The notes beneath the pieces are model-generated. The model worked only from the letters and a program-made list of their open reading frames with translations, searched no databases and was not told the DNA's origin. From Gammaproteobacteria bacterium (lineage in GTDB: Bacteria; Pseudomonadota; Gammaproteobacteria; Steroidobacterales; JABDKV01), in assembly GCA_013003425.1 (NCBI GenBank), contig JABDJB010000016.1, positions 26,104 through 90,103 on the forward strand: a stretch of 64,000 nt of DNA, given 5' to 3'. The position numbers and the translations under genes were made by a program. Below are positions 6,200 through 47,368 of this stretch, one piece after another. Numbering within the stretch: position 1 is the stretch's first letter; each line of letters opens with the position of its first letter.

Positions 6200-7267
6200 T
6201 CAGGCTGCGCCGGGCGGCGCGTAGTCCTTGAAATTCTGCTTGTTGAAGGCTTTCTCGTAGGCAGCTTCGCCGGTGATCATGCGTTGCTGTACCAGCCGTT
6301 TCAGCGCCGAGTCCATGGTCTGCATACCGGACTGGGCACCGGCCTGCATAGTCGTTTCGAGCTGGTCGAGTTTGCCCTGCCGTATCAGGTTGGCGACCGC
6401 CGAGTTGTTGACCAGGATTTCCAGCGCGGCAATACGTCCGCCGCCATCTTTCTTGCGGATCAGCTGCTGCGAAATAACGCCACGCAGTGATGTGGAGATC
6501 ATCGATCGTATATGGGCCTGCTTGTCGGACGGAAAGGTGTTGACGATGCGGTCGATTGTCGGCGGCGCGCCATTCGTGTGCAGCGTACCCATCACAAGTA
6601 TGCCGGTTTCGGCTGCCGTTACCGCGATGCTCATGGTTTCCAGGTCGCGCATTTCGCCCACCAGGATTACATCGGGGTCTTCGCGTAACGCCGAATGCAG
6701 CGCGGCGGCAAAACTCGGTGTGTGGACGCCCACTTCACGCTGGCTGATCAGGCACTGTTTGCGGTCGTGGGTGAACTCGATCGGGTCCTCGATGGTAACG
6801 ATATGGCCCTTTTTCGTCGTATTGATGTGGTCGATCATTGCGGCCAGCGTGGTGGATTTGCCCGACCCGGTCTTGCCGGTCACAAGGATCAGCCCCTGCG
6901 GGTGCTTGCACAGGTCGCGGGCAACGCGTGGCATCTTGAGCTCGTCGAGCGTCAGCGCGGTTTCGGGTATTGCCCGGAACACTGCGCCAAGGCCGTTGAG
7001 GTGACGCAGCACGTTTACGCGAAAACGACCCTTTCCGGGTAGCTCGTAGGCAAAATCCGCGCCTTCGTGTTCCTCAAGTTCCTTGCGTGCCTTTGGCGTC
7101 ATGATGGTATCGAGCGACTGACGCACTTTTTCTGCATCCAGCCGATGCTCGGTCAGCGGCTGCAGTTCGCCGTATTGCCGTATGCGCGGCGGGTCGCCAG
7201 CCATGTAGTGCAGGTCGGAAGCTTCCCGCTCCAGCGTCATGGTCAGCAGATCGCTGATTGTCGCCAT
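6200..7267 (-). CDS. PilT/PilU-family type IV pilus retraction-type ATPase (paralog 2)
   Basis: 355 aa. Walker [22 protein letters not shown], His box [11 protein letters not shown], and [11 protein letters not shown] resembling the PilT AIRNLIRE motif. Its ATG overlaps the upstream TGA (TGATG at 7265..7269). Confidence 0.88.
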
Positions 7268-8373
7268 CAGCCGGCCACCGTGCCCTTGTCGGCACCGGGT
7301 CCACCGGCCAGGTCCTCGTCCGTGACAAAGCGACGAAACGGCTGCTTGTCGCTGGCGTACGAATAGGCATCGTTTGGATCGATCTCTTTGCGCTGTACGG
7401 CATCGAGCAGGGCCTGGTCGAGCTGTTGCATGCCCAGGTGGCGACCGGTTTGCAGCTGGGACGGTATCTGGTGGGTCTGCTCGGTCGATATAAGCTTGCC
7501 GATTGCGCGTGTCATTACCATGATCTCAAGTACTGCCTTGCGGCCACGCATGTCGGCCGTCTTGCACAGTACCTGCGAGATCACGGCATTCAGGTTGGTC
7601 GACAGGAAGCTCTTGGTTTGCTCGCGCAGGTCGCTGGGTAACGCATCGATGATGCGGTCGATACTTTTTACTGCGCCAGTCGTATGCAGTGTGCCGAGCA
7701 CCAGGTGACCGGTTTCGGCTGCCGTCATTGCCATCGATATGGTCTCGGCATCACGCATTTCGCCGACCAGGATGACGTCCGGATCTTCACGCAGCGCCGC
7801 ACGCAGCCCGTCAGCAAAGCTTTCCAGGTGTGTGCCAAGTTCGCGTTGCACAACCTGTGATTTCTTGCTCGGATGCACGAATTCAATCGGGTCTTCCAGG
7901 CTGATGATATTCATCGCCTTGCTGGTATTGATGTAATCGAGCATCGACGCGAGCGTAGTAGATTTACCGGTACCGGTTGCCCCGGTGACCAGGATCATGC
8001 CCTGGTGATACTCGGTCAGGTCCCTGATGACGGGTGGCAAGCCGAGCTTTTCCAGATTCGGGATTTCCGTCGGGATGTAACGAAAGGTTGCCCCCACGCC
8101 GGTTGCCTTGCGGTAAAGGTTGACGCGGAATCTCGCGCCGTCCTCGGTCACATAGGAAAAATCGAGGTCGTTGCCGCCGCCAAACCTGTTCTGCTGATTC
8201 TGCGTGAGGATCTCGTTGACGTAGCTCTCCAGCTCGGTTCCCGAGAGGTCGCGGAACTTGATCGGCATCAGGTCGCCGCTCATCCGCAGCATCGGTGGCA
8301 CGCCGACCGCCAGATGCACGTCTGAACATCCCTGTGCCAGGCCCAGTTTGAGAAACGAATCAATTCTGGCCAC
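7267..8373 (-). CDS. PilT/PilU-family ATPase (paralog 1, more divergent)
   Basis: Walker [33 protein letters not shown]. The AIRNLIRE position is degenerate (RAIGKLISTEQ). I place the start at GTG 8373 (VARIDSFLKLG...), preceded by GGAGGTATACA. The track extension to 8532 has no homology-like sequence and lies inside the kinase gene. Confidence 0.85.
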   Translation of the reverse strand: MARIDSFLKLGLAQGCSDVHLAVGVPPMLRMSGDLMPIKFRDLSGTELESYVNEILTQNQQNRFGGGNDLDFSYVTEDGARFRVNLYRKATGVGATFRYIPTEIPNLEKLGLPPVIRDLTEYHQGMILVTGATGTGKSTTLASMLDYINTSKAMNIISLEDPIEFVHPSKKSQVVQRELGTHLESFADGLRAALREDPDVILVGEMRDAETISMAMTAAETGHLVLGTLHTTGAVKSIDRIIDALPSDLREQTKSFLSTNLNAVISQVLCKTADMRGRKAVLEIMVMTRAIGKLISTEQTHQIPSQLQTGRHLGMQQLDQALLDAVQRKEIDPNDAYSYASDKQPFRRFVTDEDLAGGPGADKGTVAG

Positions 8374-10759
8374 TGTATACCTCCAGCAACGATTCCAGCC
8401 CCTCACGAACTTCGTCCATGCTGGCGGGCCGCTCCATCTTGTCGACAGACATGATCCTGCCTGCCAGCGCAACAACGTCGTCGGGCAGTTTCGGGTTCGC
8501 CTCGCCGATCGGTTTGGCATTGCCCTGGACATGCTGGTACATCACAGCCATGTGATCGCCCTCGGTATAAGGCGGCTTGCCGGTGAGCAATTCGTAGAGG
8601 ATCACGCCGAGGCTGTAGATATCGGCGCGCTGGTCGATTTTTTTGCCGAGGATCTGCTCCGGTGCCATGTACTTGGGCGAGCCGATAACGTAACCGGTCT
8701 TGGTCAGGCCACTGTCACCACCGCCATGCGCGGCGGCAACGCCAAAATCCACCACTTTGACAACACGCTCGTCGTTGACCAGAACATTCGCCGGTTTCAG
8801 GTCACGGTGCACAATTCCCACCTGGTGGGCGGCCGACATGCCGTTGGCGATGTCGGCGGTGATCATCAGTGCGCGGGGGATGTCCAGCGGCTTGCGCGGC
8901 GCCATCTCGGCACTGAGGGCATGCGACGGAAAGTACTCCATGGAGATGGCATATAAGCCGGACAGGTGAACAAAATCGTAGATGCGGATCACATTTTGGT
9001 GCGTGATCTTGCGCGAGAAGCGCAGTTCGTGGACGAAACGCTGCAGCATCTCCTCATCGTCGGCAATAGCCTTGTTGAGGAACTTCAGCACCAGTCGCTC
9101 CGCTACCACCGTGTCTTCGACCAGGATTACGGTGCCGAATGCGCCTTTACCGATCTGCTGGATGAACTGGTAGCGGTTTTCGATGATGTCGCCGGGATTC
9201 AACGCGTTCAGGTCGATCATCGGCGCAGATTTTGCCGCTTCGATAGCCTCATTGGCGTTGATGAACATCGTGTGCGCCGGCTCGACCATTTGCGCGGCCT
9301 TCAGATTCTCTGCAACAGCGGTAGCGGAGAAGCGGGCGTCAAGATCCTCGCGGGCACGTTCAGCGGCGTGAGCCACGTTCTGGTCGGCGTCGGCCGTGAG
9401 GGCATGAATGCGCTCCATTACTGATTCGGCATTCACGTCGTCAGTAATCTTTGCCATCGCGCGCAGGGCTTCAATTCGAACCTCCGCCTCCGGCCGGCCC
9501 AGCAGCGGGGCAATATTGGTCAGCGCCTGCTGATCGGCGAGTACGGCTATCGCGCGCAACGCACTGGGCACTGACTTGGCTTCGCCGCTGAGCATGCCGA
9601 TTATTGCCGGCAGCGCTCGCTTGTCACCGATTTCCGCCAGCGCGTCGGCGGCGCGTTCGCGTACCCACCAGTCATCGTCACGAGTTGCCTCGATCAGGAA
9701 TTTTACGGCGCGCTCATCTTTTGTGGCGTTGAGAATCTCTATTGCGGCGCGCCGGATAGACTCGTCTTTGTCCTTTATGAGCTGCAGCACTGAATCGACA
9801 ACTTTGGGACCGCCGATCTTTGCCAGCGCGTCGGTCGCACGCGAGCGCACCCACCAGTCGCTGTCCTTCAGCGCATCGAGCAGCGTCTTGATGGCGTTAC
9901 TATCGCCGACTTCGTTCAGGACCTCGACGGCCGAGCGCCGTGAATACTCGTTCTCGCTCTGCAGCGCGCCGAGCAAATGCTTGACGGTATCCGGATGGTT
10001 GACCCGGATCATCACATCGACCGCCTTGTTCTGCACCTCGATTTCCGGATCTTCCAGCAGCTTGCCGAGTAAGGAAATATCCAGGCCCTCGGCCATTTTT
10101 GACAGCGCAGACAAGGCCGCCTGGCGTACCAGCTTGCTGCGATCGGTCAGCTGCTTCTGTAATGCCTGTTGCACGTCGCCGCGACGAAAGCGCGACAGGA
10201 TATGAATAATGTGAACTCGCACCATGGCATCCTTGCCAGTCAGCCGGTCGATAAGTTCCGGCACCATGGTGTCGTTGGCCATTTCACCGACCAGCTTCAT
10301 GCAGGCTTCTTTTTTGTTTGGCGCGAGGTCGTAAGCGGCGATCAGCAGCCGGCGGGCATCCACCTTGTCCTTGTGCGCGCTAAGCACCTGGATAAGCGTG
10401 GAGCCAGGGATGTCTTCGTCGTCGAGCAGGTCGAGCAGACGATTGGGATCGTAGGTAGTGCGACTGGTCAGGGCCCAGGCGACACCGGAGACCACGCGCT
10501 GGCTGTCGCTCTTCAGCGCCTCGATATATTCGGGCAGTGTTTTCTCATTGAGCAACTGCGCGAGTATGTCGATGAAGGTAATAGTCTGTTCTTTGTCGGC
10601 CGTGCTGAGCGCCTCGACGACATGACTGACCGCAGCCGGGCCGAGGCCAACGATCTTGTCAGAGATCGCCTTGACGTCAGCCGACTCGTCGCCATGACGC
10701 CGTACGGCAACCAGCTGATCGACAAGTTTCTCGGCCTTGATGCTGCGAAGGAACTTCAT
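8360..10759 (-). CDS. HEAT-repeat (PBS-lyase type) protein with C-terminal Hanks-type Ser/Thr protein kinase domain
   Basis: 799 aa with no TM helix or signal peptide. About the first 500 aa are HEAT_PBS-like repeats (DSDWWVRSRATDALAKIG, DDDWWVRERAADALAEIG, ESIRRAAIEIL). The C-terminal ~275 aa (DNA ~8363..9187) carry a complete kinase core: GKGAFGTV, LVLKF, HRDLKPANVLV, DFG, GSPKYMAPE. Confidence 0.88.
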   Translation of the reverse strand: MKFLRSIKAEKLVDQLVAVRRHGDESADVKAISDKIVGLGPAAVSHVVEALSTADKEQTITFIDILAQLLNEKTLPEYIEALKSDSQRVVSGVAWALTSRTTYDPNRLLDLLDDEDIPGSTLIQVLSAHKDKVDARRLLIAAYDLAPNKKEACMKLVGEMANDTMVPELIDRLTGKDAMVRVHIIHILSRFRRGDVQQALQKQLTDRSKLVRQAALSALSKMAEGLDISLLGKLLEDPEIEVQNKAVDVMIRVNHPDTVKHLLGALQSENEYSRRSAVEVLNEVGDSNAIKTLLDALKDSDWWVRSRATDALAKIGGPKVVDSVLQLIKDKDESIRRAAIEILNATKDERAVKFLIEATRDDDWWVRERAADALAEIGDKRALPAIIGMLSGEAKSVPSALRAIAVLADQQALTNIAPLLGRPEAEVRIEALRAMAKITDDVNAESVMERIHALTADADQNVAHAAERAREDLDARFSATAVAENLKAAQMVEPAHTMFINANEAIEAAKSAPMIDLNALNPGDIIENRYQFIQQIGKGAFGTVILVEDTVVAERLVLKFLNKAIADDEEMLQRFVHELRFSRKITHQNVIRIYDFVHLSGLYAISMEYFPSHALSAEMAPRKPLDIPRALMITADIANGMSAAHQVGIVHRDLKPANVLVNDERVVKVVDFGVAAAHGGGDSGLTKTGYVIGSPKYMAPEQILGKKIDQRADIYSLGVILYELLTGKPPYTEGDHMAVMYQHVQGNAKPIGEANPKLPDDVVALAGRIMSVDKMERPASMDEVREGLESLLEVYSGQN

Positions 10760-18475: not shown

Positions 18476-18802
18476 TTCGGGCGGTCGCCCTATACGGGCG
18501 GCTCCGTTGACCACGACAATGGGCCGTTGCAGGAGTCGCGGGCAATTGTGCATTGCGCTAATCAGATCCTCGTCCGTTGTCGCCGGGTCCGACAGCCTGA
18601 GCTCACGGTATTCTTTCTCGCCGCTGCGGATCAGCTCGCGCGGTGTCATGCCGAGCAGTCCCAGCAACTCGCGGATCTGCTGCGCACTCGGGGGAGTTTC
18701 CAGGTAGAGAATCACCCGGGGCTCGATGCCACGCTTCTCCAGCAGCGCCAGCGTGGCACGTGATTTCGAGCAGCGTGGGTTGTGATAGATGGTAACTTCC
18801 AT
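18455..18802 (-). CDS. arsC: arsenate reductase (glutaredoxin-coupled ArsC family)
   Basis: MEVTIYHNPRCSKSR...ILYLETPPS...LLQRPIVV...RIGRPPESVLDIL follows the R773-type ArsC layout with the catalytic Cys. ATG 18802 is preferred over 18811. Confidence 0.88.
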   Translation of the reverse strand: MEVTIYHNPRCSKSRATLALLEKRGIEPRVILYLETPPSAQQIRELLGLLGMTPRELIRSGEKEYRELRLSDPATTDEDLISAMHNCPRLLQRPIVVVNGAARIGRPPESVLDIL

Positions 18803-18910
18803 GCCGGCCATTCTGGCGCGACAGGGGATGTTGCGCCACTGCTTGACGCCGCGGCAGCGTGCTTGCTACGTTGTTTTCATCAGATAAATCGTGACCTTAG
18901 GTTCGTTTGC

Positions 18911-19228
18911 ATGCAGCGGATAAAGCGGGTGTTATTGAAAGGCTGGGTCACCGCGTGGGTCATCGCCTGCGCGGTAACGCTTTCCGCCTGTGTCGGGCCG
19001 CCGGTGCAGGAGATGAGCAACGCCCGCCAGGCAATAGCTGCAGCCCAGGAAGCCGGCGCCGGCAAAGTTGCCGCGGAAAATCTGGAGCGCGCCGACACCT
19101 TGCTGCGCTCCGCCGAACAGCGGCTGCAGGAAAAACGCTATCGGGAGGCGCGCCGCGCCGCTATCGCTGCAAAGCAGGAAGCCGTCGAAGCCCTGGCTCG
19201 AACAAAAAACGCTGACGATAATAAATGA
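18911..19228 (+). CDS. DUF4398-like lipoprotein
   Basis: Starting at ATG 18911 gives MQRIKRVLLKGWVTAWVIACAVTLSAC with lipobox LSAC, followed by a helical Ala/Glu/Arg-rich domain. The track extension from 18782 overlaps the arsC start region. Confidence 0.7.
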   Translation: MQRIKRVLLKGWVTAWVIACAVTLSACVGPPVQEMSNARQAIAAAQEAGAGKVAAENLERADTLLRSAEQRLQEKRYREARRAAIAAKQEAVEALARTKNADDNK

Positions 19229-19497
19229 CCGCCGTATGCCGGCGGTTTTTTGTGAGCGGCCGGGTGCAGGGGGTTTTCTTCCGCGCGACTACGTCACGGG
19301 TTGCTCGTGGCCTTTCATTGACCGGCTATGCCCGAAACCTGGCCGATGGCCGGGTAGAGGTGCTTGCTTGCGGGCCGGGCCAAACGGTCGATGAGCTGGA
19401 ACAATGGTTGTGGCAGGGATCGTCTGCCAGCTCTGTCGACGATGTCAGCAGTGATGTGGTCGACGTTGATCCGCCGGCGGGTTTTACGACCGGCTGA
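19225..19497 (+). CDS. acylphosphatase
   Basis: 90 aa with V-x-G-x-VQGV-x-FR (FVSGRVQGVFFRATT) and GYARNLADGRVEV. Has an ATGA overlap with the upstream gene. Confidence 0.9.
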   Translation: MTAVCRRFFVSGRVQGVFFRATTSRVARGLSLTGYARNLADGRVEVLACGPGQTVDELEQWLWQGSSASSVDDVSSDVVDVDPPAGFTTG

Positions 19498-19500
19498 ACG

Positions 19501-21138
19501 CTACGCCGTGCTGTTGAGCATCGTGCCGCTGGCGATGGCGGAATCGCCATACGCCGCGCCATAGTTGGCCAGCGCGCCACGCAGCCCCGCCATCAATCCG
19601 CCGAGAAACAGCTGCGATGCGCCCAGGTTATGGCGGATGCTGGACGTCAGCTCCTGCCGGTCGATGCGACCGAAACGGTGGCCGACCGGCGATTCGAGGT
19701 CGAACAGCAGCCCGAGGCGAGAGTCGCCGTCCGGCGTGTTGGCACGCAGAGAGCCGAGAATGTCATTACGCAGTCTGTCCAGCGATTCGCTGCGAAGGGT
19801 ATTTTCCGCCGGATGAAATACATCGTTTATCAGGTCAATCGTCGCGTCGACTGAGTCAGCAATGCGATAGCTGCGCGAGCGCGAGACTCCGCTGCTGCCG
19901 ATCGCGTTGTAGGTTTTTTCCGCCACACCCAGCGCATCGAAAAACTGCGTGCCCTGGTCATCGATGCTTAGCGCCATGCCTTCGATGTCGGCCTTCAGGG
20001 AGATGCGTTGTCCGCCCTGCACGAGGCTGGCGGTGATATCGATGTCTGCGTCATTGATGATTGATACAACATCCGACAGCGAATCAGTAGTGACGTCGAT
20101 ATCGAAGTTGTAACCGTTGATCAGCAGGCCACCGCTGCTGACGCTGCTGAAGCGCGTGGTCTGGTCGAGGGCAATGTCGGCCTCGCTGTCCAGTCCCGGG
20201 CTACTGGACACACCGTCGAGTTTTACCGCAGAGAGGAACCCGGAGTCATCGTTTGACAGCACTATGTCACTGGCCGACCCGGGTGTCCGGCGGGTGAGCC
20301 TGACCGTTTCGCTGTTGGTGTCGAAGACCGCATTGACATCCGCTGCCGACGCACTGATTCGGCTCAATACGTCGTTTATCGAGTCAGAATCATTTACATT
20401 GATCGTCACGCCATTGATGTCGAAAGACCCGGCACTGACCGATTCGCCCAGATCGAAATTAGGCCGGTCGTTGCGGGTGCCATCGAATGGGTTGTCAGGA
20501 TCGACCGCGCTGGGGGTGTTCTCGTAGACGTCGAGATAGAACTCGTCACCCTGTACCAGCGTGCCGGCACCAAGCTGGAATTTCAGCCCGTTGCCAATAT
20601 TGTATTGCTTATCCAGCGCGTGCCATGGCTGGACCTTGATAGTCTTGATCTTGCTTCCCGAGCCATCGTAAACCTTGACCTCAATTTTCGAGGCACCGTG
20701 CACGCCCGTCCTGGTGACCAGGAAACGCAAGGAGTCGTCGCCATTCTCGCCGTTATAGACATTGGAGATTTCCGGTAGCGCATCCGAGCCGCCCGGGCCG
20801 GTAAAGACGGGCCCGAATGGTGAATAGGACGTCGTTGCCGTGTTGACTTCTTCGCTGGTGTTGAGCGTGGTTGCGGTCTGGGTGGTATTGAGGCCAAGGC
20901 TTTGCGATGTGACTGCTGCCTTGCCCGAGCTGGTACGGACCCGCGCCCGCGTCAGCAGGTCGTCGAGCTGGTTCAGGGACTTTGTGAGCTGGCTGACGCG
21001 ACGGTCGTTCAGGCCGAGCTGGGCCGATTCGGCCGGCGATACCGCTGGAGTAATGCCCGTCCCTGCCGATAAGTCGGAGCGGGAAGGTCTGACCTGGAGA
21101 TACCGGACCAGGTTATCGAAGTGGAAGCCGACCTGCAT
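19501..21138 (-). CDS. hypothetical protein with two FliD (HAP2)-like tandem repeats
   Basis: 545 aa, rich in Asp/Ser/Thr/Asn/Gly, with no signal peptide or TM helix. The two repeats are SVSAGSFDINGVTINVNDSDSINDVLSRISA... and SVSSGGLLINGYNFDIDVTTDSLSDVVSIIND.... AAGGAAG lies upstream of the ATG. Confidence 0.6.
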   Translation of the reverse strand: MQVGFHFDNLVRYLQVRPSRSDLSAGTGITPAVSPAESAQLGLNDRRVSQLTKSLNQLDDLLTRARVRTSSGKAAVTSQSLGLNTTQTATTLNTSEEVNTATTSYSPFGPVFTGPGGSDALPEISNVYNGENGDDSLRFLVTRTGVHGASKIEVKVYDGSGSKIKTIKVQPWHALDKQYNIGNGLKFQLGAGTLVQGDEFYLDVYENTPSAVDPDNPFDGTRNDRPNFDLGESVSAGSFDINGVTINVNDSDSINDVLSRISASAADVNAVFDTNSETVRLTRRTPGSASDIVLSNDDSGFLSAVKLDGVSSSPGLDSEADIALDQTTRFSSVSSGGLLINGYNFDIDVTTDSLSDVVSIINDADIDITASLVQGGQRISLKADIEGMALSIDDQGTQFFDALGVAEKTYNAIGSSGVSRSRSYRIADSVDATIDLINDVFHPAENTLRSESLDRLRNDILGSLRANTPDGDSRLGLLFDLESPVGHRFGRIDRQELTSSIRHNLGASQLFLGGLMAGLRGALANYGAAYGDSAIASGTMLNSTA

Positions 21139-21279
21139 GTTCTGCGCATCTTCCTTGATGACTGGAGGACAGGGTGGCGTAAATCTACCAGAAATGCTGC
21201 GAAGTAACTCACGTTACTTCTTGTTTCTTATTAACTTAATAGGTGCCAGGCAGCCAAGCCGGCATTTTGTACTGACGCG

Positions 21280-21834
21280 TCAGGAGCGGAACCACTTGCG
21301 GCGCAGCTTATCCAGCACCTTGTCGGGGTATTTACGCCGGCCGAGACTGCCGTTATAGCGGGCCAGGGCACGCACCATGTCGCCTTTTTCCCGGTCCAGG
21401 TAGTAGCGCAGGATCGTGCAACCCATGCGCAGGTTGGTATCAACGTGAAACAGGTTGTCGTCGGGCCGGCCAATTTCGTCCAGCCAGAAAGGCATGACCT
21501 GCATCAGCCCCAGGGCGCCGGCCCACGAGATCGCGTAGCGGTCAAAATTACTTTCAACATCGATCACGGCCAGGACCAGCTCCGGTGGCAGGTCGACACG
21601 CTGTGCCTCGCGATGCACCTGGCGCAGTATTTCCAGTCGCTCCTCCGCATCCGGCAGCTGCCGCTGCAGCCGGGCTGACATATCGGTCAGCCATACTTCT
21701 GCCGCAAAGCGATCTTCAAAACTTTCCGACTGTTCCACCGCGGTGATCAGCAGGTCGCGCAGGTCAGGATCGGGTTGCGACGCGCCCAGCAGCGCCGGCA
21801 ACAGCAGGGCGGCGGTCAGGAGGGCCGGCCGCAT
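21280..21834 (-). CDS. lytic transglycosylase (SLT domain) protein
   Basis: Signal peptide MRPALLTAALLLPALLGA. Catalytic region VIDVESNFDRYAISWAGALGLMQVM. The start lies 1 nt after the proS stop. Confidence 0.88.
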   Translation of the reverse strand: MRPALLTAALLLPALLGASQPDPDLRDLLITAVEQSESFEDRFAAEVWLTDMSARLQRQLPDAEERLEILRQVHREAQRVDLPPELVLAVIDVESNFDRYAISWAGALGLMQVMPFWLDEIGRPDDNLFHVDTNLRMGCTILRYYLDREKGDMVRALARYNGSLGRRKYPDKVLDKLRRKWFRS

Positions 21835-21835
21835 T

Positions 21836-23551
21836 TTAGCTGTTCACCGCCAGCTTGCTGTCGAGCCAGGCGTCCAGCTCCGCCGCGGGTATGTTTTCGT
21901 TGTCGTCATCGCGCCGGCCCCGGCACTCGATCGTGCCGGCATCGAGGCCGCGCTCGGCAACGACCAGTCTCACGGGTATTCCGAGCAGCTCGCAGTCGGC
22001 AAATTTCACGCCCGGCCTGAGGTCGCGGTCGTCAATGATGACCTCGTAACCCTGCTCGCCGAGGCGAGCATAAAGTTCGTTTGCCGCGGAGCAAACACGT
22101 TCGGACTTGGCCATGTTGATGGGTATGATCATGATCTGATACGGGGCTATAGCGGCGGGCCAGATAATTCCGTTGTCATCATGATTCTGCTCGATGGCTG
22201 CTGCCACGATGCGCGTCACACCTATGCCATAGCAGCCCATCGGCATGGCGATGCTCTTGCCGTCGCGGTCGAGCACGGTGGCATCCATTGGCTTGCTGTA
22301 CTTGGTCTCCAGCTTGAAGATGTGTCCCACCTCGATGCCGCGGGCGATCTCCAGTGTGCCCTTGCCGTCGGGACTGGCTTCACCGGCGGTGACATTGCGC
22401 AAATCAGCACATTCGGGTTGCGGCAGGTCCCGTTCCCAGTTGACGTTGCGAAGGTGATATCCGTCTTCGTTGGCGCCGCAGACAAAGTCGCTCAGCTGTG
22501 CCGCCGCGTGATCAGCGATTACCGGGCAGGCCAGGCCCAACGGCCCCACCGAGCCCGGGCTGCTGCCGGCCGCCTGCTGCACCTGCGACGCAGACGCCAT
22601 GCGCAGCGGGTCAGCAACGCCGGGCAGTTTGGCGGACTTTATTGCATTGAGCTCATGGTCGCCGCGCAGTACCAGCGCGACAACATCGTCATCGCTGCCA
22701 GCGACGAACAGGGTTTTTACACAGCTGGCCGCCGGCACGCCGAGCGCCTGGCTTACCTGCTCGATCGTTTGTGCCCCCGGTGTGGCAACTTTTTCCAGCG
22801 CTGCTTCCGGTTCAGGACGCGGGCCCGGTGGTGGTGGCGCTGCTGCTGCTTCCATATTGGCCGCGTAGTTGCTTGCGTTTGAGTAAACAATTGCATCTTC
22901 GCCGGAGTCAGCCAGCACGTGGAACTCATGTGACACTTCGCCGCCGATAGCGCCGCTGTCGGCTTCCACTGCGCGAAATTTCAGGCCGCTGCGTTGAAAG
23001 ATGCGCGTATACGCCTGGTACATGTCCTGGTACGTCTGGTGCAGCGAGTCGGTATCAATATGAAATGAGTATGCGTCCTTCATCACGAATTCACGGGCAC
23101 GCATCACACCGAAGCGCGGGCGGATCTCGTCGCGGAACTTCGTTTGAATCTGGTAAAAAGTGACGGGCAGCTGTCGATAGCTGCGCAGCTCGCGTCGGGC
23201 GATGTCAGTGATGACTTCCTCATGCGTCGGGCCGTAGCAGAATTCGCGCTGATGGCGGTCGGTGAAGCGCAGCAGCTCCGGTCCGTAGAAATCCCAGCGG
23301 CCGGACTCGTGCCACAGCTCACCGGGCTGCACGCTTGGCAGCACGAGTTCGAGGCCCCCGGCACGATCCATTTCCTCGCGCACAATGCGCTCTACCTTGC
23401 GCACCACGCGCAGGCCGAGCGGCAGCCACGAGTAAATTCCGGCAGCCAGCTTGCGGATCAGGCCGGCACGCAGCATCAGCTGGTGGCTGATAATCTCGGC
23501 GTCAGCCGGTGCTTCCTTCTGGGTGGCGATGGGCAGGGCGGTCAGGCGCAT
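21836..23551 (-). CDS. proS: proline--tRNA ligase
   Basis: Starts at ATG 23551 ([46 protein letters not shown]) and gives 571 aa, the bacterial type with an editing insertion. The track ORF to 24139 is an artefactual N-terminal extension. Confidence 0.95.
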
Positions 23552-45533: not shown

Positions 45534-46385
45534 TTGCATACTGTCGAGACGATAGCTGCATTGCGCGAACAGGTTCACGCCTGGCGCTGCCGCGGTTCCC
45601 GTATTGCATTTGTTGCCACTATGGGGAACCTGCATGCCGGCCATCTCAGCCTGGTGCGCACGGCTCGGCGCCTGGGTGATCGGGTTGTTGCCAGTATTTT
45701 CGTCAACCCTCTGCAGTTCGGACCTGATGAGGACTATGCCGCGTACCCGCGTACGCTGGAGGATGATCAGGCGGCACTATTATCCGTTGGCTGCGACCTG
45801 CTGTTCGCACCAACTGCCGATGAAATGTATCCGCACGGAGAATCATCAACACGCCTGACGGTCGGCGCGCTGGGCGATGTGCTCTGTGGCGCGCACCGGG
45901 CGGGGCATTTCGACGGCATGGCAACGGTGGTATTGAAGCTGCTCAATATCGTGCAACCGGATGTGGCTGTGTTTGGCCAGAAGGATTTCCAGCAGCTGGC
46001 AGTGATCAGGCGGTTTGTGCGAGACCTCGACCTGACCGTCGATATTGCCGATCAGCCGACGGTACGTGAGGACGATGGCCTGGCAATGAGTTCGCGTAAT
46101 CGCTACCTGGATGCTGAACAGCGCGAGGTCGCACCGCTGCTGTTCCGGGCAATTTCGTCGATAGCGAACGATATCGGCGACGGCCGGCGTGATTTCCGGC
46201 AAATGTGCCAGTCGGCAGCGACGCAGCTACGCGAGGCCGGTTTCAAGCCGGACTACATCGAGGTTCGGGATGCCGACGACCTGCGTGAGCCCAATGAGCA
46301 GACTCGCAGAGTCGTCGTGCTTGCGGCCGCGGTGCTTGGCGGCGCCCGGTTGATAGATAACGAGCAGGTGCAGTTGCCGGCCTAG
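45534..46385 (+). CDS. panC: pantoate--beta-alanine ligase
   Basis: FVATMGNLHAGHLSLV motif. TTG 45534, just after the panB stop, gives 283 aa. The track start at ATG 45474 would overlap panB by 56 nt. Confidence 0.9.
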   Translation: MHTVETIAALREQVHAWRCRGSRIAFVATMGNLHAGHLSLVRTARRLGDRVVASIFVNPLQFGPDEDYAAYPRTLEDDQAALLSVGCDLLFAPTADEMYPHGESSTRLTVGALGDVLCGAHRAGHFDGMATVVLKLLNIVQPDVAVFGQKDFQQLAVIRRFVRDLDLTVDIADQPTVREDDGLAMSSRNRYLDAEQREVAPLLFRAISSIANDIGDGRRDFRQMCQSAATQLREAGFKPDYIEVRDADDLREPNEQTRRVVVLAAAVLGGARLIDNEQVQLPA

Positions 46386-47368
46386 TGGGCGACGCAGTTG
46401 CGTCCGGCCAGCTTGGCACGATAAAGCGCCGTGTCGGCGTTGTTGATCAGTACTTCCAGAGTGTCTGACGGGGAGCGCTCGGCAACGCCGATTGATACGG
46501 TCACGCCGGCGCCATCCTCCGGACCGGTTCGTTCACCGGGGTTGCCGCCGATGGATGCGCGAACCCGTTCGGCTATTTCCAGCGCCTGGTTCAGATCGGT
46601 ATCCGGCAGCATTACGGCAAACTCGTCGCCACCGTAGCGCGCGATCATGTCGGTTGGCCGGAAATACTGGCGCAGCGCATCGGCGACTGTGCACAGCGCG
46701 TGATCACCGGCAATGTGACCGTGCAGGTCATTGAACGGTTTGAAGTAATCGACATCGAGCATTACCAGGCAAATGTCCTGGCCATCTATTTCGCAACGCT
46801 GCATCTTGCGGCGAAACATATCTTCCATCCAGTGACGATTGAACAATTCGGTCAGCGCGTCGGTCATTGCGTTGCGTTCGTACTGCCGCAGTACGCCTTC
46901 GCTGTCAGCAATCAGCTCATTGTCAGCGCGCAGGCGCTCCGACAGGATTGCCAGAAGGTTGCGGGCAAAAGCATGCGATGTATTGATCATTTCCCACACG
47001 GCAGCCTGGTCGAGTGCCAGCAGCTGGGTATCCTCGGCTGCCCGCACCCACGCGGAAGGTGGCTGATTGTCGATGATCGACATTTCGCCGGCGCAGGATC
47101 CGGCCTGCAGCGTGGTTAGCGGTGCCTCCTGTTCACTCACAAGGTGAACCGTCAGGCTGCCACTCAGGATTGCGTAGACACTGGTATTGGGTATGTCCGG
47201 TGCCAGGAGTAGTTCGCCAGCGCGCAGGCTGCGCTGTTCGCAATGCTCTAGATTTAGTTCGATTGATTCAGGGCTGACACCGCGCAGCAGGCGCAGCGCC
47301 GCAAAACGCGGGTCAGCGTAAAACGGTTGACGTATTCTCTGCGAGTCCGATGTTACGCCAGGTTTCAT
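46382..47368 (-). CDS. diguanylate cyclase with N-terminal cyclic-nucleotide-binding domain
   Basis: N-terminal cNMP-binding-like barrel (GELLLAPD...GSCAGEMSIID). The C-terminal GGDEF domain has RYGGDEFAV and an RPTD (RxxD) I-site 5 residues upstream. Confidence 0.88.
   Translation of the reverse strand: MKPGVTSDSQRIRQPFYADPRFAALRLLRGVSPESIELNLEHCEQRSLRAGELLLAPDIPNTSVYAILSGSLTVHLVSEQEAPLTTLQAGSCAGEMSIIDNQPPSAWVRAAEDTQLLALDQAAVWEMINTSHAFARNLLAILSERLRADNELIADSEGVLRQYERNAMTDALTELFNRHWMEDMFRRKMQRCEIDGQDICLVMLDVDYFKPFNDLHGHIAGDHALCTVADALRQYFRPTDMIARYGGDEFAVMLPDTDLNQALEIAERVRASIGGNPGERTGPEDGAGVTVSIGVAERSPSDTLEVLINNADTALYRAKLAGRNCVAH

What the first reader, a model, noticed from the sequence alone, without database searches (positions are those of the whole stretch)
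19501..21138. Orphan 545-aa protein with tandem FliD-like repeats outside any flagellar locus
Seen in the sequence. The ORF has no signal peptide or TM helix and is rich in Asp/Ser/Thr/Asn/Gly. It carries two ~75-aa tandem repeats, at aa 233-308 (DNA 20215..20442) and aa 332-406 (DNA 19921..20145). The shared pattern is SVS-x-G-x3-ING-x5-8-DS-[IL]-x-DV-[LV]-S-x-I...D-x2-G-x-F-[LF]-x-A-[LV]. Terminal segments look helical (QLTKSLNQLDDLLTRA near the N-terminus; LDRLRNDILGSL and LGLLFDLES...IDRQELTSSI near the C-terminus). From memory, the ING...DS..DV...I...F..A.G pattern and helical termini are characteristic of the flagellar filament cap FliD/HAP2 and related axial proteins exported without a cleaved signal. 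No flagellar, T3SS or chaperone gene lies within 64 kb. The neighbours are proS-slt (upstream, same strand) and acylphosphatase (convergent, 3 nt away). An SLT lytic transglycosylase immediately upstream fits an envelope-spanning export route. Inference: this may be a repurposed cap- or adhesin-like protein, or the substrate of a distant secretion system.
Basis: partly seen in the sequence, partly recalled or inferred. Interest (0 to 1): 0.6.

Follow-up and report, generated by a model that had tools for sequence, protein, structure and literature searches.

The report
Uncharacterised flagellar-cap-like protein family member
The gene is real and conserved. It is not an orphan: it belongs to a large, undescribed family of proteins built from flagellar cap and junction-type domains. 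In many marine sediment bacteria this family is switched on by the flagellar late-gene sigma factor, so it is probably an unrecognised flagellum-associated surface protein.

Summary
The 545-aa ORF (19501..21138, minus strand), its two ~70-aa internal repeats, its acidic Cys-free composition and its neighbours are all as described. "Orphan" is wrong. A profile search finds 584 cluster representatives at E<=1e-30, across Gammaproteobacteria (especially Woeseiaceae), Nitrospirota, Nitrospinota and other phyla, and none is annotated.

The repeats are Flagellin_IN motifs. The only curated models that any family member touches are flagellar hook-associated proteins. The central beta-domain resembles the FlgL/FlgK outer domain. 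FliD_N and FliD_C are not detected, so it is not a FliD.

Single N- and C-terminal segments flank central modules that are multiplied in larger relatives (up to about 2,000 aa), as in flagellar axial proteins. No gene neighbour is conserved, and the slt adjacency is clade-specific synteny.

New here: a canonical FliA/sigma-28 promoter (CT[CA]AAG-N14-GCCGATA) lies about 60 nt upstream of at least 20 of 46 family genes, against 17 of 673 other ORFs. The window's own clade lacks it and has a different conserved 45-nt element with a palindrome.

Best reading: a secreted, HAP-like, flagellum-associated protein whose regulation has been rewired in this clade. Export route and function are inferred, not shown.

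The parts
19501..21138 (-). Coding sequence of the 545-aa family member (stop codon included)
   Evidence: ORF. (start and length conserved in 13 relatives at 50-87% identity). (dN/dS 0.10).
21046..21138 (-). aa 1-31: N-terminal segment. Its sequence is conserved (M-x-[VI]-x-F-x-L-x-N-L-x-R-[FY]-x-R-V) but it is predicted disordered. It has no signal-peptide core.
   Evidence: pLDDT <50. (N-terminal consensus in 46 proteins). (hydropathy).
20950..21036 (-). aa 35-63: long N-terminal helix
   Evidence: No detectable similarity to FliD_N (E 0.59).
20443..20856 (-). aa 95-232: family signature region. It comprises the loop EEVNT..TSYSPFGP, a beta-sandwich (aa ~120-205) and the loop PSAVDPDxPFDGTRNDRPNFD.
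   Evidence: near-invariant motifs; the sub-domain model's best PDB matches are FlgL 5ziz (E 2.7e-3, prob 0.99), FlgK 4ut1 and Legionella FlgL; this module is multiplied up to 4 times in ~890-aa relatives.
20215..20442 (-). aa 233-308: Flagellin_IN-type repeat 1
19921..20145 (-). aa 332-406: Flagellin_IN-type repeat 2
19549..19899 (-). aa 414-530: C-terminal helical region with a beta-hairpin (helices 420-441, 451-467, 494-503, 505-530). It is weakly alignable to the FliD D1 segment GIxF...D...L..AL..NP..V..LF.
   Evidence: (aligned within the long hhalign hit). (alone: E 9e-4, prob 23%).
19504..19539 (-). aa 534-545: conserved extreme C-terminus. The family consensus is L-G-x-x-G-x-[LF]-[VLI]-[DN]-[TV]-x-A-COOH; here it reads SGTMLNSTA. 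It is predicted disordered.
   Evidence: 135 proteins: G at -8 in 128, D/N at -4 in 120, A at -1 in 92..
21196..21240 (-). Clade-specific conserved upstream block ATTAAGTYAAK..AAACAAG...TAACGTGMGTTACTTCGCAGC. It contains the palindrome GTAAC-N4-GTTAC (21204..21217). It is a candidate promoter or operator and is not a sigma-28 box.
   Evidence: conserved in window, L002, L010, L059/L060, L058, and partly in L011; unique in the window. (no sigma-28-like site upstream).
21147..21160 (-). Ribosome-binding region CAUC-AAGGAA-GAUG. This is a short hairpin with a GGA loop, conserved in the clade and similar to CAUCAAACAGGGAUGGUG in Woeseiaceae relatives.
   Evidence: 10/46 family genes against 6/673 other ORFs; folding energy is not significant, so the structure is only a suggestion.

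Best explanation
The ORF encodes a member of a large, previously undescribed family of proteins related to flagellar hook-associated proteins (FliD/FlgL/FlgK-like).

Architecture: a conserved but disordered N-terminus and a long N-terminal helix; an outward-facing head made of one FlgL/FlgK-D2-like beta-sandwich and two Flagellin_IN domains; then a C-terminal helical region and a conserved tail. Relatives keep one copy of each terminus and multiply the head modules. This is the design of flagellar axial proteins, whose termini mediate export and assembly while the centre is displayed.

In Woeseiaceae and several other lineages the gene is transcribed from a canonical FliA (sigma-28) late flagellar promoter.

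Inferred mechanism: the protein is made late in flagellar assembly. It leaves the cell without a Sec signal through the flagellar type III export apparatus. It then acts outside the cell on or near the filament, as an accessory cap, tip or decoration protein, or as a released adhesin, with the IN/beta head domains binding surfaces or polymers.

In the window's own clade the sigma-28 box is replaced by a different, strongly conserved 45-nt element with a palindrome. Expression there is therefore probably controlled by another factor.

Shown: family membership, domain homologies, modular architecture, purifying selection, the sigma-28 boxes, and the lack of conserved neighbours. Inferred: export route, extracellular location, and binding or structural role.
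For: Family size and conservation:
- 70 full-length homologs; 584 representatives at E<=1e-30; dN/dS 0.10.

Flagellar-type domains:
- Flagellin_IN in 19/25 members.
- The only NCBIfam matches are HAP3 (25/25) and HAP2 (22/25).
- hhalign against FliDs: probability 99.8%, E 6e-28 over aa 186-517.
- The top 10 Foldseek PDB hits are FliD caps, followed by the Sphingomonas surface flagellin and FlgL.
- Best hits for the mid-domain model are FlgL and FlgK.

Axial-protein-like design:
- Termini occur once while central modules are multiplied up to about 10 times.
- The conserved termini are predicted disordered.
- No Cys, pI 4.55, no signal peptide and no transmembrane segment.

Regulation:
- T[CA]AAG-N13-16-GCCGATA with at most 1 mismatch lies upstream of 20/46 family genes against 17/673 other ORFs. 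Odds ratio 30, Fisher p 1e-16; the reverse strand of the same regions gives 1/46.
- Using tblastn-anchored starts, 26/49 loci have a hit and 23 of those lie at -39..-138.
- In an alignment of 14 loci the -35 and -10 boxes are invariant while the 14-nt spacer varies freely.
- The geometry equals that of the P. aeruginosa fliC promoter: TCTAAAG at -36..-30 and GCCGATAA at -15..-8 (PMC12784957).
- The other ORFs carrying the box are typical sigma-28 regulon members: HDOD in six loci, REC-GGDEF-EAL, and an HD-GYP-like protein.
- Sediment Woeseiaceae MAGs encode complete flagellar gene sets (PMC12175321).
Against: - No FliD_N, Flagellin_N or Flagellin_C domain is found, and FliD_C is only marginal. 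The assembly-critical D0/D1 parts of known axial proteins are therefore not recognisable.
- The protein ends about 100 residues short of where FliD's C-terminal helices would lie.
- The strong FliD scores are carried by the IN domains. These also occur in phage sheath and baseplate decorations and in a TadG-like pilus protein.
- The gene is never next to flagellar or chaperone genes in about 45 loci.
- Sigma-28 regulons also include cytoplasmic proteins, so the promoter does not prove export.
- The window's own clade has no sigma-28 box.
- Whether the window's organism has flagella could not be tested.
- Nitrospirota, Nitrospinota and several other lineages show no strict box.
Confidence: 0.5

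Rival explanations
1. Non-flagellar secreted or surface protein. It would be an adhesin or surface-layer-like protein built from IN-type and beta-sandwich modules borrowed from flagellar proteins. It would be exported by another signal-peptide-independent route, for example a type I system that reads the conserved extreme C-terminus. At least in the window's clade it would act independently of flagella.
For: - The window clade has no sigma-28 box and instead has its own conserved operator-like element.
- The extreme C-terminus ...G-x-[LF]-[VLI]-[DN]-[TV]-x-A-COOH is strongly conserved. It recalls the acidic-plus-hydrophobic C-terminal motifs of type I substrates (own knowledge).
- IN repeats also occur on a TadG-like pilus protein.
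- FliD_N/FliD_C and the C-terminal D0 helix are missing.
- No flagellar genes occur in the 64-kb window or next to any homolog.
- Precedent: the Sphingomonas A1 flagellin homologs p5/p6 act as cell-surface alginate binders (PMC9751261).
Against: - No ABC transporter, MFP or other secretion genes recur next to the family among 148 flanking ORFs.
- There are no RTX repeats.
- Canonical sigma-28 promoters lie upstream of about half of the family genes.
- All detectable sequence signals are flagellar.
Confidence: 0.3
2. It is simply the organism's filament cap FliD (HAP2), highly diverged and encoded away from the flagellar loci.
For: The top Foldseek PDB hits are FliD with full-length alignments. 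hhalign against FliDs gives probability 99.8%. Many homologs have late-gene sigma-28 promoters.
Against: - FliD_N is not detected: hhalign of aa 1-100 gives E 0.59, and there is no Pfam hit in 25 members.
- FliD_C appears only in 4/25 members at E 0.007.
- The last ~170 residues of the FliD templates have no counterpart.
- TM-scores are 0.17-0.26.
- There is an extra FlgL/FlgK-like domain.
- No fliS or fliT lies nearby.
- Canonical FliDs with FliD_N and FliD_C exist as separate, far more distant hits (P0071-P0074).
- Sediment Woeseiaceae are reported to have complete flagellar assembly sets.
- Some MAGs carry two copies on different contigs (L018/L039).
Confidence: 0.08
3. Phage-derived structural protein, such as a tail-sheath or baseplate decoration, fixed in the chromosome.
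For: Foldseek against BFVD gives uncharacterised Caudovirales proteins, sheath and baseplate-J-like proteins at E 5e-7 to 1e-3. One family member weakly hits DUF3383.
Against: - The context is housekeeping and syntenic across a clade down to 50% identity (psd-proS-slt-gene-acyP-DUF4398-arsC-hda), with no phage genes.
- GC content is like the flanks.
- Homologs carry sigma-28 promoters.
- The viral similarity covers the IN-type domain only, with low TM-scores.
Confidence: 0.03

Closest known systems
FliD / HAP2 flagellar filament cap (Pfam FliD_N PF02465 + FliD_C PF07195; PDB 5h5v, 6iwy, 9gnz)
   Same: Both have Flagellin_IN-type head domains in tandem. Both have an N-terminal helix and a C-terminal helical region around the head. 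A weakly alignable D1 segment is shared. Both lack a signal peptide, and many homologs show late-gene (sigma-28) control.
   Different: FliD_N is not recognisable, and most of FliD_C and the C-terminal D0 helix are missing. There is an extra FlgL/FlgK-like beta-domain with the family-specific motifs TSYSPFGP and DPDxPFDGxRNDxPNF. The extreme C-terminus is conserved as VDTxA. The gene is never next to fliS/fliT. Head modules are multiplied to give proteins of about 2,000 aa.
FlgL (HAP3) and FlgK (HAP1) hook-filament junction proteins (PDB 5ziz, 7c7z, 4ut1)
   Same: They are the best structural matches of the aa 95-232 domain. A HAP3 model is the NCBIfam model that all 25 members touch.
   Different: The scores are far below the model cut-offs (about 30 against 337 bits) and rest on the IN segment. 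No Flagellin_N/C or FlgK terminal domains are present.
Sphingomonas sp. A1 cell-surface flagellins p5/p6 (PDB 2zbi, 3k8v, 3k8w)
   Same: They are flagellar-family proteins with an IN-motif beta-domain that act as surface polymer (alginate) binders (PMC9751261). They appear among the Foldseek hits.
   Different: p5/p6 keep canonical flagellin N and C domains and a single IN domain. The present family has neither terminal domain.
Flagellins with enlarged or enzymatic central regions (e.g. flagellinolysins, PMC5595980; giant flagellins, own knowledge)
   Same: The termini are conserved while the central region is freely expandable and displayed outward.
   Different: Those proteins are bona fide flagellins that polymerise into the filament. 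Nothing shows that this family polymerises.
Campylobacter FlaC-type flagellum-secreted non-filament proteins (own knowledge, not tested here)
   Same: The concept is the same: a flagellar-family protein encoded away from flagellar loci, controlled with the late genes, exported through the flagellum and acting outside it.
   Different: FlaC is a short flagellin homolog without a central domain. There is no sequence relationship.

Membership tests
FliD / HAP2 filament cap | N-terminal FliD_N domain (PF02465) | tested here: not met
   No hit in the target or in any of 25 family members. hhalign of aa 1-100 against four FliDs gives E 0.59.
FliD / HAP2 filament cap | C-terminal FliD_C domain (PF07195), including the terminal D0 helix | tested here: not met
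   Only 4/25 members match, at E 0.007 and below threshold. The C-terminal 141 aa alone give hhalign E 9e-4, prob 23%, over 65 columns. The last ~170 template residues are unmatched.
FliD / HAP2 filament cap | Head domains with the Flagellin_IN motif | tested here: met
   Two repeats. PF07196 in 19/25 members. hhalign probability 99.8%.
FliD / HAP2 filament cap | Encoded with fliS/fliT or other flagellar genes | tested here: not met
   No flagellar families appear among 148 flanking ORFs of about 44 loci or in the window.
FliD / HAP2 filament cap | Oligomeric cap at the filament tip that promotes flagellin polymerisation | not testable with these tools
   Needs multimer modelling, genetics or microscopy.
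Flagellar late-gene (FliA/sigma-28) regulon | Promoter CTAAAG/TCAAG-N14-15-GCCGATAA at a suitable distance upstream | tested here: not met
   For the window gene and its clade, the best upstream match has 3 mismatches and lies inside slt. For the family at large the feature is met: 20/46 against 17/673, 23 of 49 loci at -39..-138, and the alignment.
Flagellin / FlgL superfamily | Flagellin_N (PF00669) and Flagellin_C (PF00700) terminal domains | tested here: not met
   No hits at E<=10 in the target or at E<=0.1 in the 25 members.
Flagellin_IN-motif proteins (PF07196) | One or more ~55-aa IN motifs with a central I-N pair | tested here: met
   The target has FDINGVTINV and LLINGYNFDI. The target itself is below the Pfam threshold, but 19/25 homologs are significant (best E 1.1e-10) and large relatives have 9 stretches at E 1e-49.
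Flagellar type III export substrates | Export dependent on the flagellar export gate (FlhA/FlhB/FliI); disordered N-terminal signal | not testable with these tools
   Only compatible features were seen: no Sec signal and a disordered, conserved N-terminus. Whether the source genome has flagellar genes could not be checked.
Type I secretion substrates | Uncleaved C-terminal signal, usually with RTX repeats and an adjacent ABC/MFP pair | tested here: inconclusive
   The C-terminal tail is conserved. No RTX repeats were seen in the sequence, and no ABC/MFP families recur among the neighbours.

The most novel reading that the evidence does not exclude
This is an unrecognised, widespread component of the flagellar system. 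It would be a modular HAP-like protein under FliA control that sits at the tip or on the surface of the filament, or is released through it, and mediates attachment in some of the most abundant marine sediment bacteria (Woeseiaceae and others). Its head modules can be expanded to about 2,000 aa. In the window's clade it has been uncoupled from sigma-28 and placed under a new, strongly conserved palindromic operator, possibly for use without motility.
Probability: 0.35. Interest if true: 0.7.

Novelty: new variant of a known kind. Interest (0 to 1): 0.55.

Why it matters
The parts list of the bacterial flagellum is considered essentially complete. A large family of HAP-like proteins with a late flagellar promoter, no annotation and no described function would add a new accessory component. 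It occurs in cosmopolitan sediment bacteria, where flagella are thought to serve attachment as much as swimming.

The family is also an example of how IN-type outer domains are reused and multiplied. In addition, one clade has exchanged a sigma-28 promoter for another control element, which gives a tractable case of regulatory rewiring.

If the protein proves to be independent of flagella, it would be a new example of flagellar-family domains recruited to another surface function.

Tried and rejected
- Direct Pfam, NCBIfam and PDB sequence searches of the target alone gave only sub-threshold hits. A profile against PDB sequences gave only de novo helical proteins at E>0.1.
- I looked for a conserved gene neighbourhood by all-against-all BLAST of 742 ORFs from 57 loci plus the window, and by Pfam on 148 flanking ORFs. 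Only lineage-specific synteny appeared: SLT/ArsC in the window clade, and DUF11, HDOD and DUF2891 in Woeseiaceae. The SLT link is therefore rejected as a functional coupling.
- A sigma-54 promoter was rejected. The window has TGGCAC but no -12 GC, and only 1/46 family genes match.
- There is no sigma-28 box in the window clade even at 3 mismatches. The idea that TCAAG-N14-AACGTG is a variant sigma-28 site could not be supported, because there is only one such site in the window.
- Rfam found no match in 18500..22000. The 5' leaders do not fold better than shuffled sequences. The CsrA-like hairpin therefore remains only a suggestion.
- Literature searches for FliD-like, FliD paralog or PF07196 proteins found no description of this family.
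- A phage origin was considered because of the BFVD hits and rejected on context.
- I tried to place the organism with ProS. The result was only "Gammaproteobacteria bacterium", with Steroidobacteraceae and Chromatiales MAGs at 68-69% identity. This does not tell whether the organism is flagellated.
Full report
**1. The observation**

The ORF at 19501..21138 (minus strand) is real: 545 aa with an ATG start. The start and length are conserved in 13 relatives of 50-87% identity.

An AAGGAAG ribosome-binding site lies 11 nt upstream of the ATG. GC content matches the flanks.

Against an 87%-identical relative, dN/dS is 0.10. It is 0.15-0.22 against relatives of about 61-65% identity. The gene is therefore expressed and under purifying selection.

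The protein is acidic (pI 4.55) and rich in S, G, D, T and N. It has no Cys and one Trp, and no hydrophobic segment (maximum KD19 1.16).

The neighbours are as stated: proS and an SLT-domain gene upstream on the same strand, and acylphosphatase convergent with a 3-nt gap.

Forty window ORFs scanned with Pfam are housekeeping genes: rnf, metG, a pilT/pilU-like pair, purMN, hda, valS, lptFG, panBC, amiC, mutL, hflXK, purA and rnr. None is flagellar.

The one wrong element is "orphan".

**2. It belongs to a large, unannotated family**

The word-indexed search returned 70 full-length homologs. All are "hypothetical", and many are tagged PF07196 Flagellin_IN.

The exhaustive profile search found 2650 cluster representatives at E<=1e-3 and 584 at E<=1e-30.

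A scan of one genome per species returned 49 loci. All are MAGs. Many are labelled Woeseiaceae or Gammaproteobacteria; others are labelled Nitrospirales, Nitrospinota, Rhodospirillales, Deltaproteobacteria, Myxococcales, Pirellulaceae, Acidobacteria and Fibrobacteraceae.

The window itself comes from an NCBI MAG labelled "Gammaproteobacteria bacterium". Its nearest named ProS relatives are Steroidobacteraceae and Chromatiales MAGs at 68-69% identity.

**3. What the protein is made of**

An AlphaFold2 model built on 25 family members has mean pLDDT 81.5. It shows, in order:
- disordered ends (aa 1-31 and 533-545);
- a long N-terminal helix (35-63);
- a beta-sandwich (about 120-205);
- two alpha/beta repeats (237-305 and 336-402);
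- a C-terminal helical region with a beta-hairpin (420-530).

*The repeats.* They are Flagellin_IN motifs. PF07196 is significant in 19/25 members, best E 1.1e-10, and reaches 1e-49 in large relatives.

The only NCBIfam models touched by any member are flagellar HAP3 (25/25) and HAP2 (22/25). All are far below cut-off.

*Comparison with FliD.* Profile-profile comparison with four true FliDs gives probability 99.8%, E 6e-28 over aa 186-517.

When the protein is cut into pieces, the N-terminal 100 residues and the aa 95-232 region give nothing. The C-terminal 141 residues give only E 9e-4.

The homology with FliD is therefore solid for the IN domains, marginal for a D1-like C-terminal segment, and absent for FliD_N and the D0 helix.

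*Fold searches.* Foldseek against the PDB ranks ten FliD cap structures first (E 4e-6 to 4e-4). The Sphingomonas surface flagellin and FlgL follow.

TM-scores are low (0.17-0.26). Similar E-values are obtained against phage sheath and baseplate proteins that carry the same kind of decoration domain.

A separate model of aa 95-232 (pLDDT 74) matches best the outer domains of FlgL and FlgK.

Every recognisable piece thus points to the outer domains of flagellar hook-associated proteins. The terminal domains that define FliD, flagellin or FlgL are not recognisable.

**4. Modular design**

I mapped the family profile onto larger relatives. The N-terminal and C-terminal segments occur once, while the central modules are multiplied.

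The beta-sandwich occurs four times in proteins of about 890 aa. The IN pair occurs up to about ten times in proteins of 1,400-2,000 aa.

Both extreme termini are conserved in sequence although predicted disordered. The N-terminus reads M-x-[VI]-x-F-x-L-x-N-L-x-R. The C-terminus reads L-G-x-x-G-x-[LF]-[VLI]-[DN]-[TV]-x-A-COOH in 135 proteins.

Flagellar axial proteins share this design: conserved termini that are disordered in the monomer, and a freely expandable centre. This is established knowledge. Here it is an analogy, not proof.

**5. Genomic context**

In the window's clade the gene sits in a stable housekeeping block: psd-proS-slt-gene-(acyP)-DUF4398-arsC-hda.

Outside that clade the neighbourhood is unrelated.

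All-against-all comparison of 742 ORFs, and Pfam on 148 flanking ORFs, show no conserved partner. No flagellar, chaperone or secretion family recurs.

The SLT gene is coupled to proS, and their ORFs overlap. In L002 it is separated from the family gene by an opposite-strand ORF. The proposed SLT link is therefore clade synteny and not a functional association.

**6. A flagellar promoter**

Scanning the upstream regions gave an unexpected result.

The sigma-28 (FliA) consensus T[CA]AAG-N13-16-GCCGATA, with at most one mismatch, lies upstream of 20 of 46 non-redundant family genes. Most sites are 58-63 nt before the start.

The same pattern occurs upstream of 17 of 673 other ORFs in the same loci (odds ratio 30, Fisher p 1e-16). 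On the reverse strand of the family regions it occurs in 1 of 46.

With tblastn-anchored starts, 26/49 loci have a hit. Twenty-three of these lie at -39..-138, including every Woeseiaceae-labelled locus that has enough upstream sequence.

In an alignment of 14 loci, CT[CA]AAG and GCCGATA are invariant while the 14-nt spacer and the flanks vary freely. That pattern is the signature of selection on the boxes.

The geometry equals that of the P. aeruginosa fliC promoter seen in the sigma-28 open complex: TCTAAAG at -36..-30 and GCCGATAA at -15..-8 (PMC12784957).

Several of the "other" ORFs with the box are typical sigma-28 regulon members. They are HDOD proteins in six loci, a REC-GGDEF-EAL protein and an HD-GYP-like protein. 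The background is therefore partly true positives.

Looser variants of the same geometry are visible in further lineages: L019, L006, L024 and the L032/L048/L050/L053 group.

Sediment Woeseiaceae MAGs are reported to carry complete flagellar gene sets (PMC12175321).

In a large part of the family, the gene is thus a late flagellar-regulon gene encoded away from the flagellar loci.

**7. The window's clade is different**

Upstream of the window gene and its closest relatives (L002, L010, L011, L058, L059/L060) there is no sigma-28 box, even at three mismatches.

Instead a 45-nt block is conserved in these relatives, whose proteins are 50-87% identical to the target: ATTAAGTYAAK..AAACAAG...TAACGTGMGTTACTTCGCAGC (window 21196..21240).

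The block contains the palindrome GTAAC-N4-GTTAC, and it is unique in the window. I read it as a promoter with an operator for an unidentified factor.

The ribosome-binding region (CAUC-AAGGAA-GAUG, window 21147..21160) resembles the CAUCAAACAGGGAUGGUG leader of the Woeseiaceae genes. It is enriched in the family, 10/46 against 6/673.

The GGA-in-a-loop arrangement recalls CsrA sites. However, the leaders do not fold significantly better than shuffles and nothing matches Rfam.

**8. Interpretation**

The best-supported reading is a secreted, HAP-like, flagellum-associated protein.

It would be made with the late flagellar genes in many lineages and exported without a Sec signal, most simply through the flagellar type III apparatus. 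It would display FlgL/FlgK-like and IN-type head domains outside the cell as an accessory cap, tip or decoration protein, or as a released adhesin.

The steps shown are family membership, domain relationships, modular architecture, purifying selection, promoter type and the lack of conserved partners.

The steps inferred are export route, location and binding or structural role. Confidence in the whole chain is 0.5.

- **Main rival (0.3):** a non-flagellar surface protein exported by another route, perhaps through the conserved C-terminal tail, particularly in the window's clade, which has lost the sigma-28 box.
- **A plain diverged FliD (0.08):** disfavoured by the failed FliD_N/FliD_C tests and the missing C-terminal helices.
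- **A phage origin (0.03):** disfavoured by context.

**9. Comparison with what is known, and novelty**

The family works like, and is related to, flagellar hook-associated proteins. It fails the defining tests for FliD, flagellin and FlgL.

Literature searches found no description of it.

I rate it a new variant of a known kind. It is of moderate to good interest for flagellar biology and for the ecology of sediment bacteria.

What could not be settled here is whether the window's organism has flagella at all.

Noticed in passing
L021:6898-7728, L039:351-1181, L042:4768-5703, L046:3840-4670, L051:6498-7055, L052:5955-6785; L015:6927-9065; L015:14348-15664; L030:9745-10383: Sigma-28-type boxes (TAAAG/TCAAG-N14-15-GCCGA[TC]A) also lie 37-99 nt upstream of other genes in the fetched loci. 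These are HDOD-domain genes in six loci, a REC-GGDEF-EAL gene, an HD-GYP-like gene and an SLT lytic transglycosylase. Together they suggest a FliA regulon with c-di-GMP signalling genes in these uncultured bacteria.
   Followed up: partly
protein P0181 (2452 aa; metagenomic, no locus): This giant protein has a TadE/G-like N-terminus, about 14 Flagellin_IN-type repeats and a C-terminal VWA domain. IN repeats therefore also occur on a Tad-pilus-type protein, outside the flagellar system.
   Followed up: partly
window 21147..21160 (-); L037:9980-10003 and equivalents: The leader has a conserved short hairpin with a GGA-containing loop over the ribosome-binding site (CAUC-AAGGAA-GAUG; CAUCAAACAGGGAUGGUG in Woeseiaceae). 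It resembles CsrA-binding sites and is enriched in the family (10/46 against 6/673). Folding energies are not significant and there is no Rfam match.
   Followed up: partly
window 6200..7267 (-) and 7267..8532 (-): Two adjacent T2SSE-family ATPase genes form a PilT/PilU-like pair. This suggests type IV pilus retraction (twitching) in this organism. They lie 11 kb from the target, with no evident link to it.
   Followed up: no
window 8360..10759 (-); L002:11852-13014: A 799-aa protein carries six HEAT-repeat stretches and a C-terminal Ser/Thr kinase domain. It is conserved at the same position in the related MAG.
   Followed up: no
L059 and L060 (GCA_013003605.1, contigs JABDIT010000213.1 and JABDIT010000203.1): The same MAG holds two near-identical syntenic contigs (psd-proS-slt-gene-...-hda). 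Their copies of the family protein differ slightly (P0005 and P0006). This looks like strain heterogeneity in the bin and not paralogy. One copy lacks the acylphosphatase gene call.
   Followed up: partly
L051:7125-9716, L027:7069-9657, L037:7128-9719, L042:5729-8332 (-): In Woeseiaceae-type loci the gene directly upstream, on the opposite strand, encodes an ~860-aa DUF11-repeat protein. A Reprolysin-type metalloprotease with DUF11 repeats lies nearby. This may be a cluster of surface proteins specific to the lineage.
   Followed up: partly
L025:4424 upstream (Myxococcales-labelled MAG): A sigma-54-type box (TGGCAT-N5-TTGC) lies upstream of this family member, where other lineages have a sigma-28 box. 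It is a single case and may be chance.
   Followed up: no
window 46382..47368 (-): A cNMP-binding plus GGDEF diguanylate cyclase gene lies next to a PPK2 gene. I noted it only because c-di-GMP genes recur near family members in other loci.
   Followed up: no
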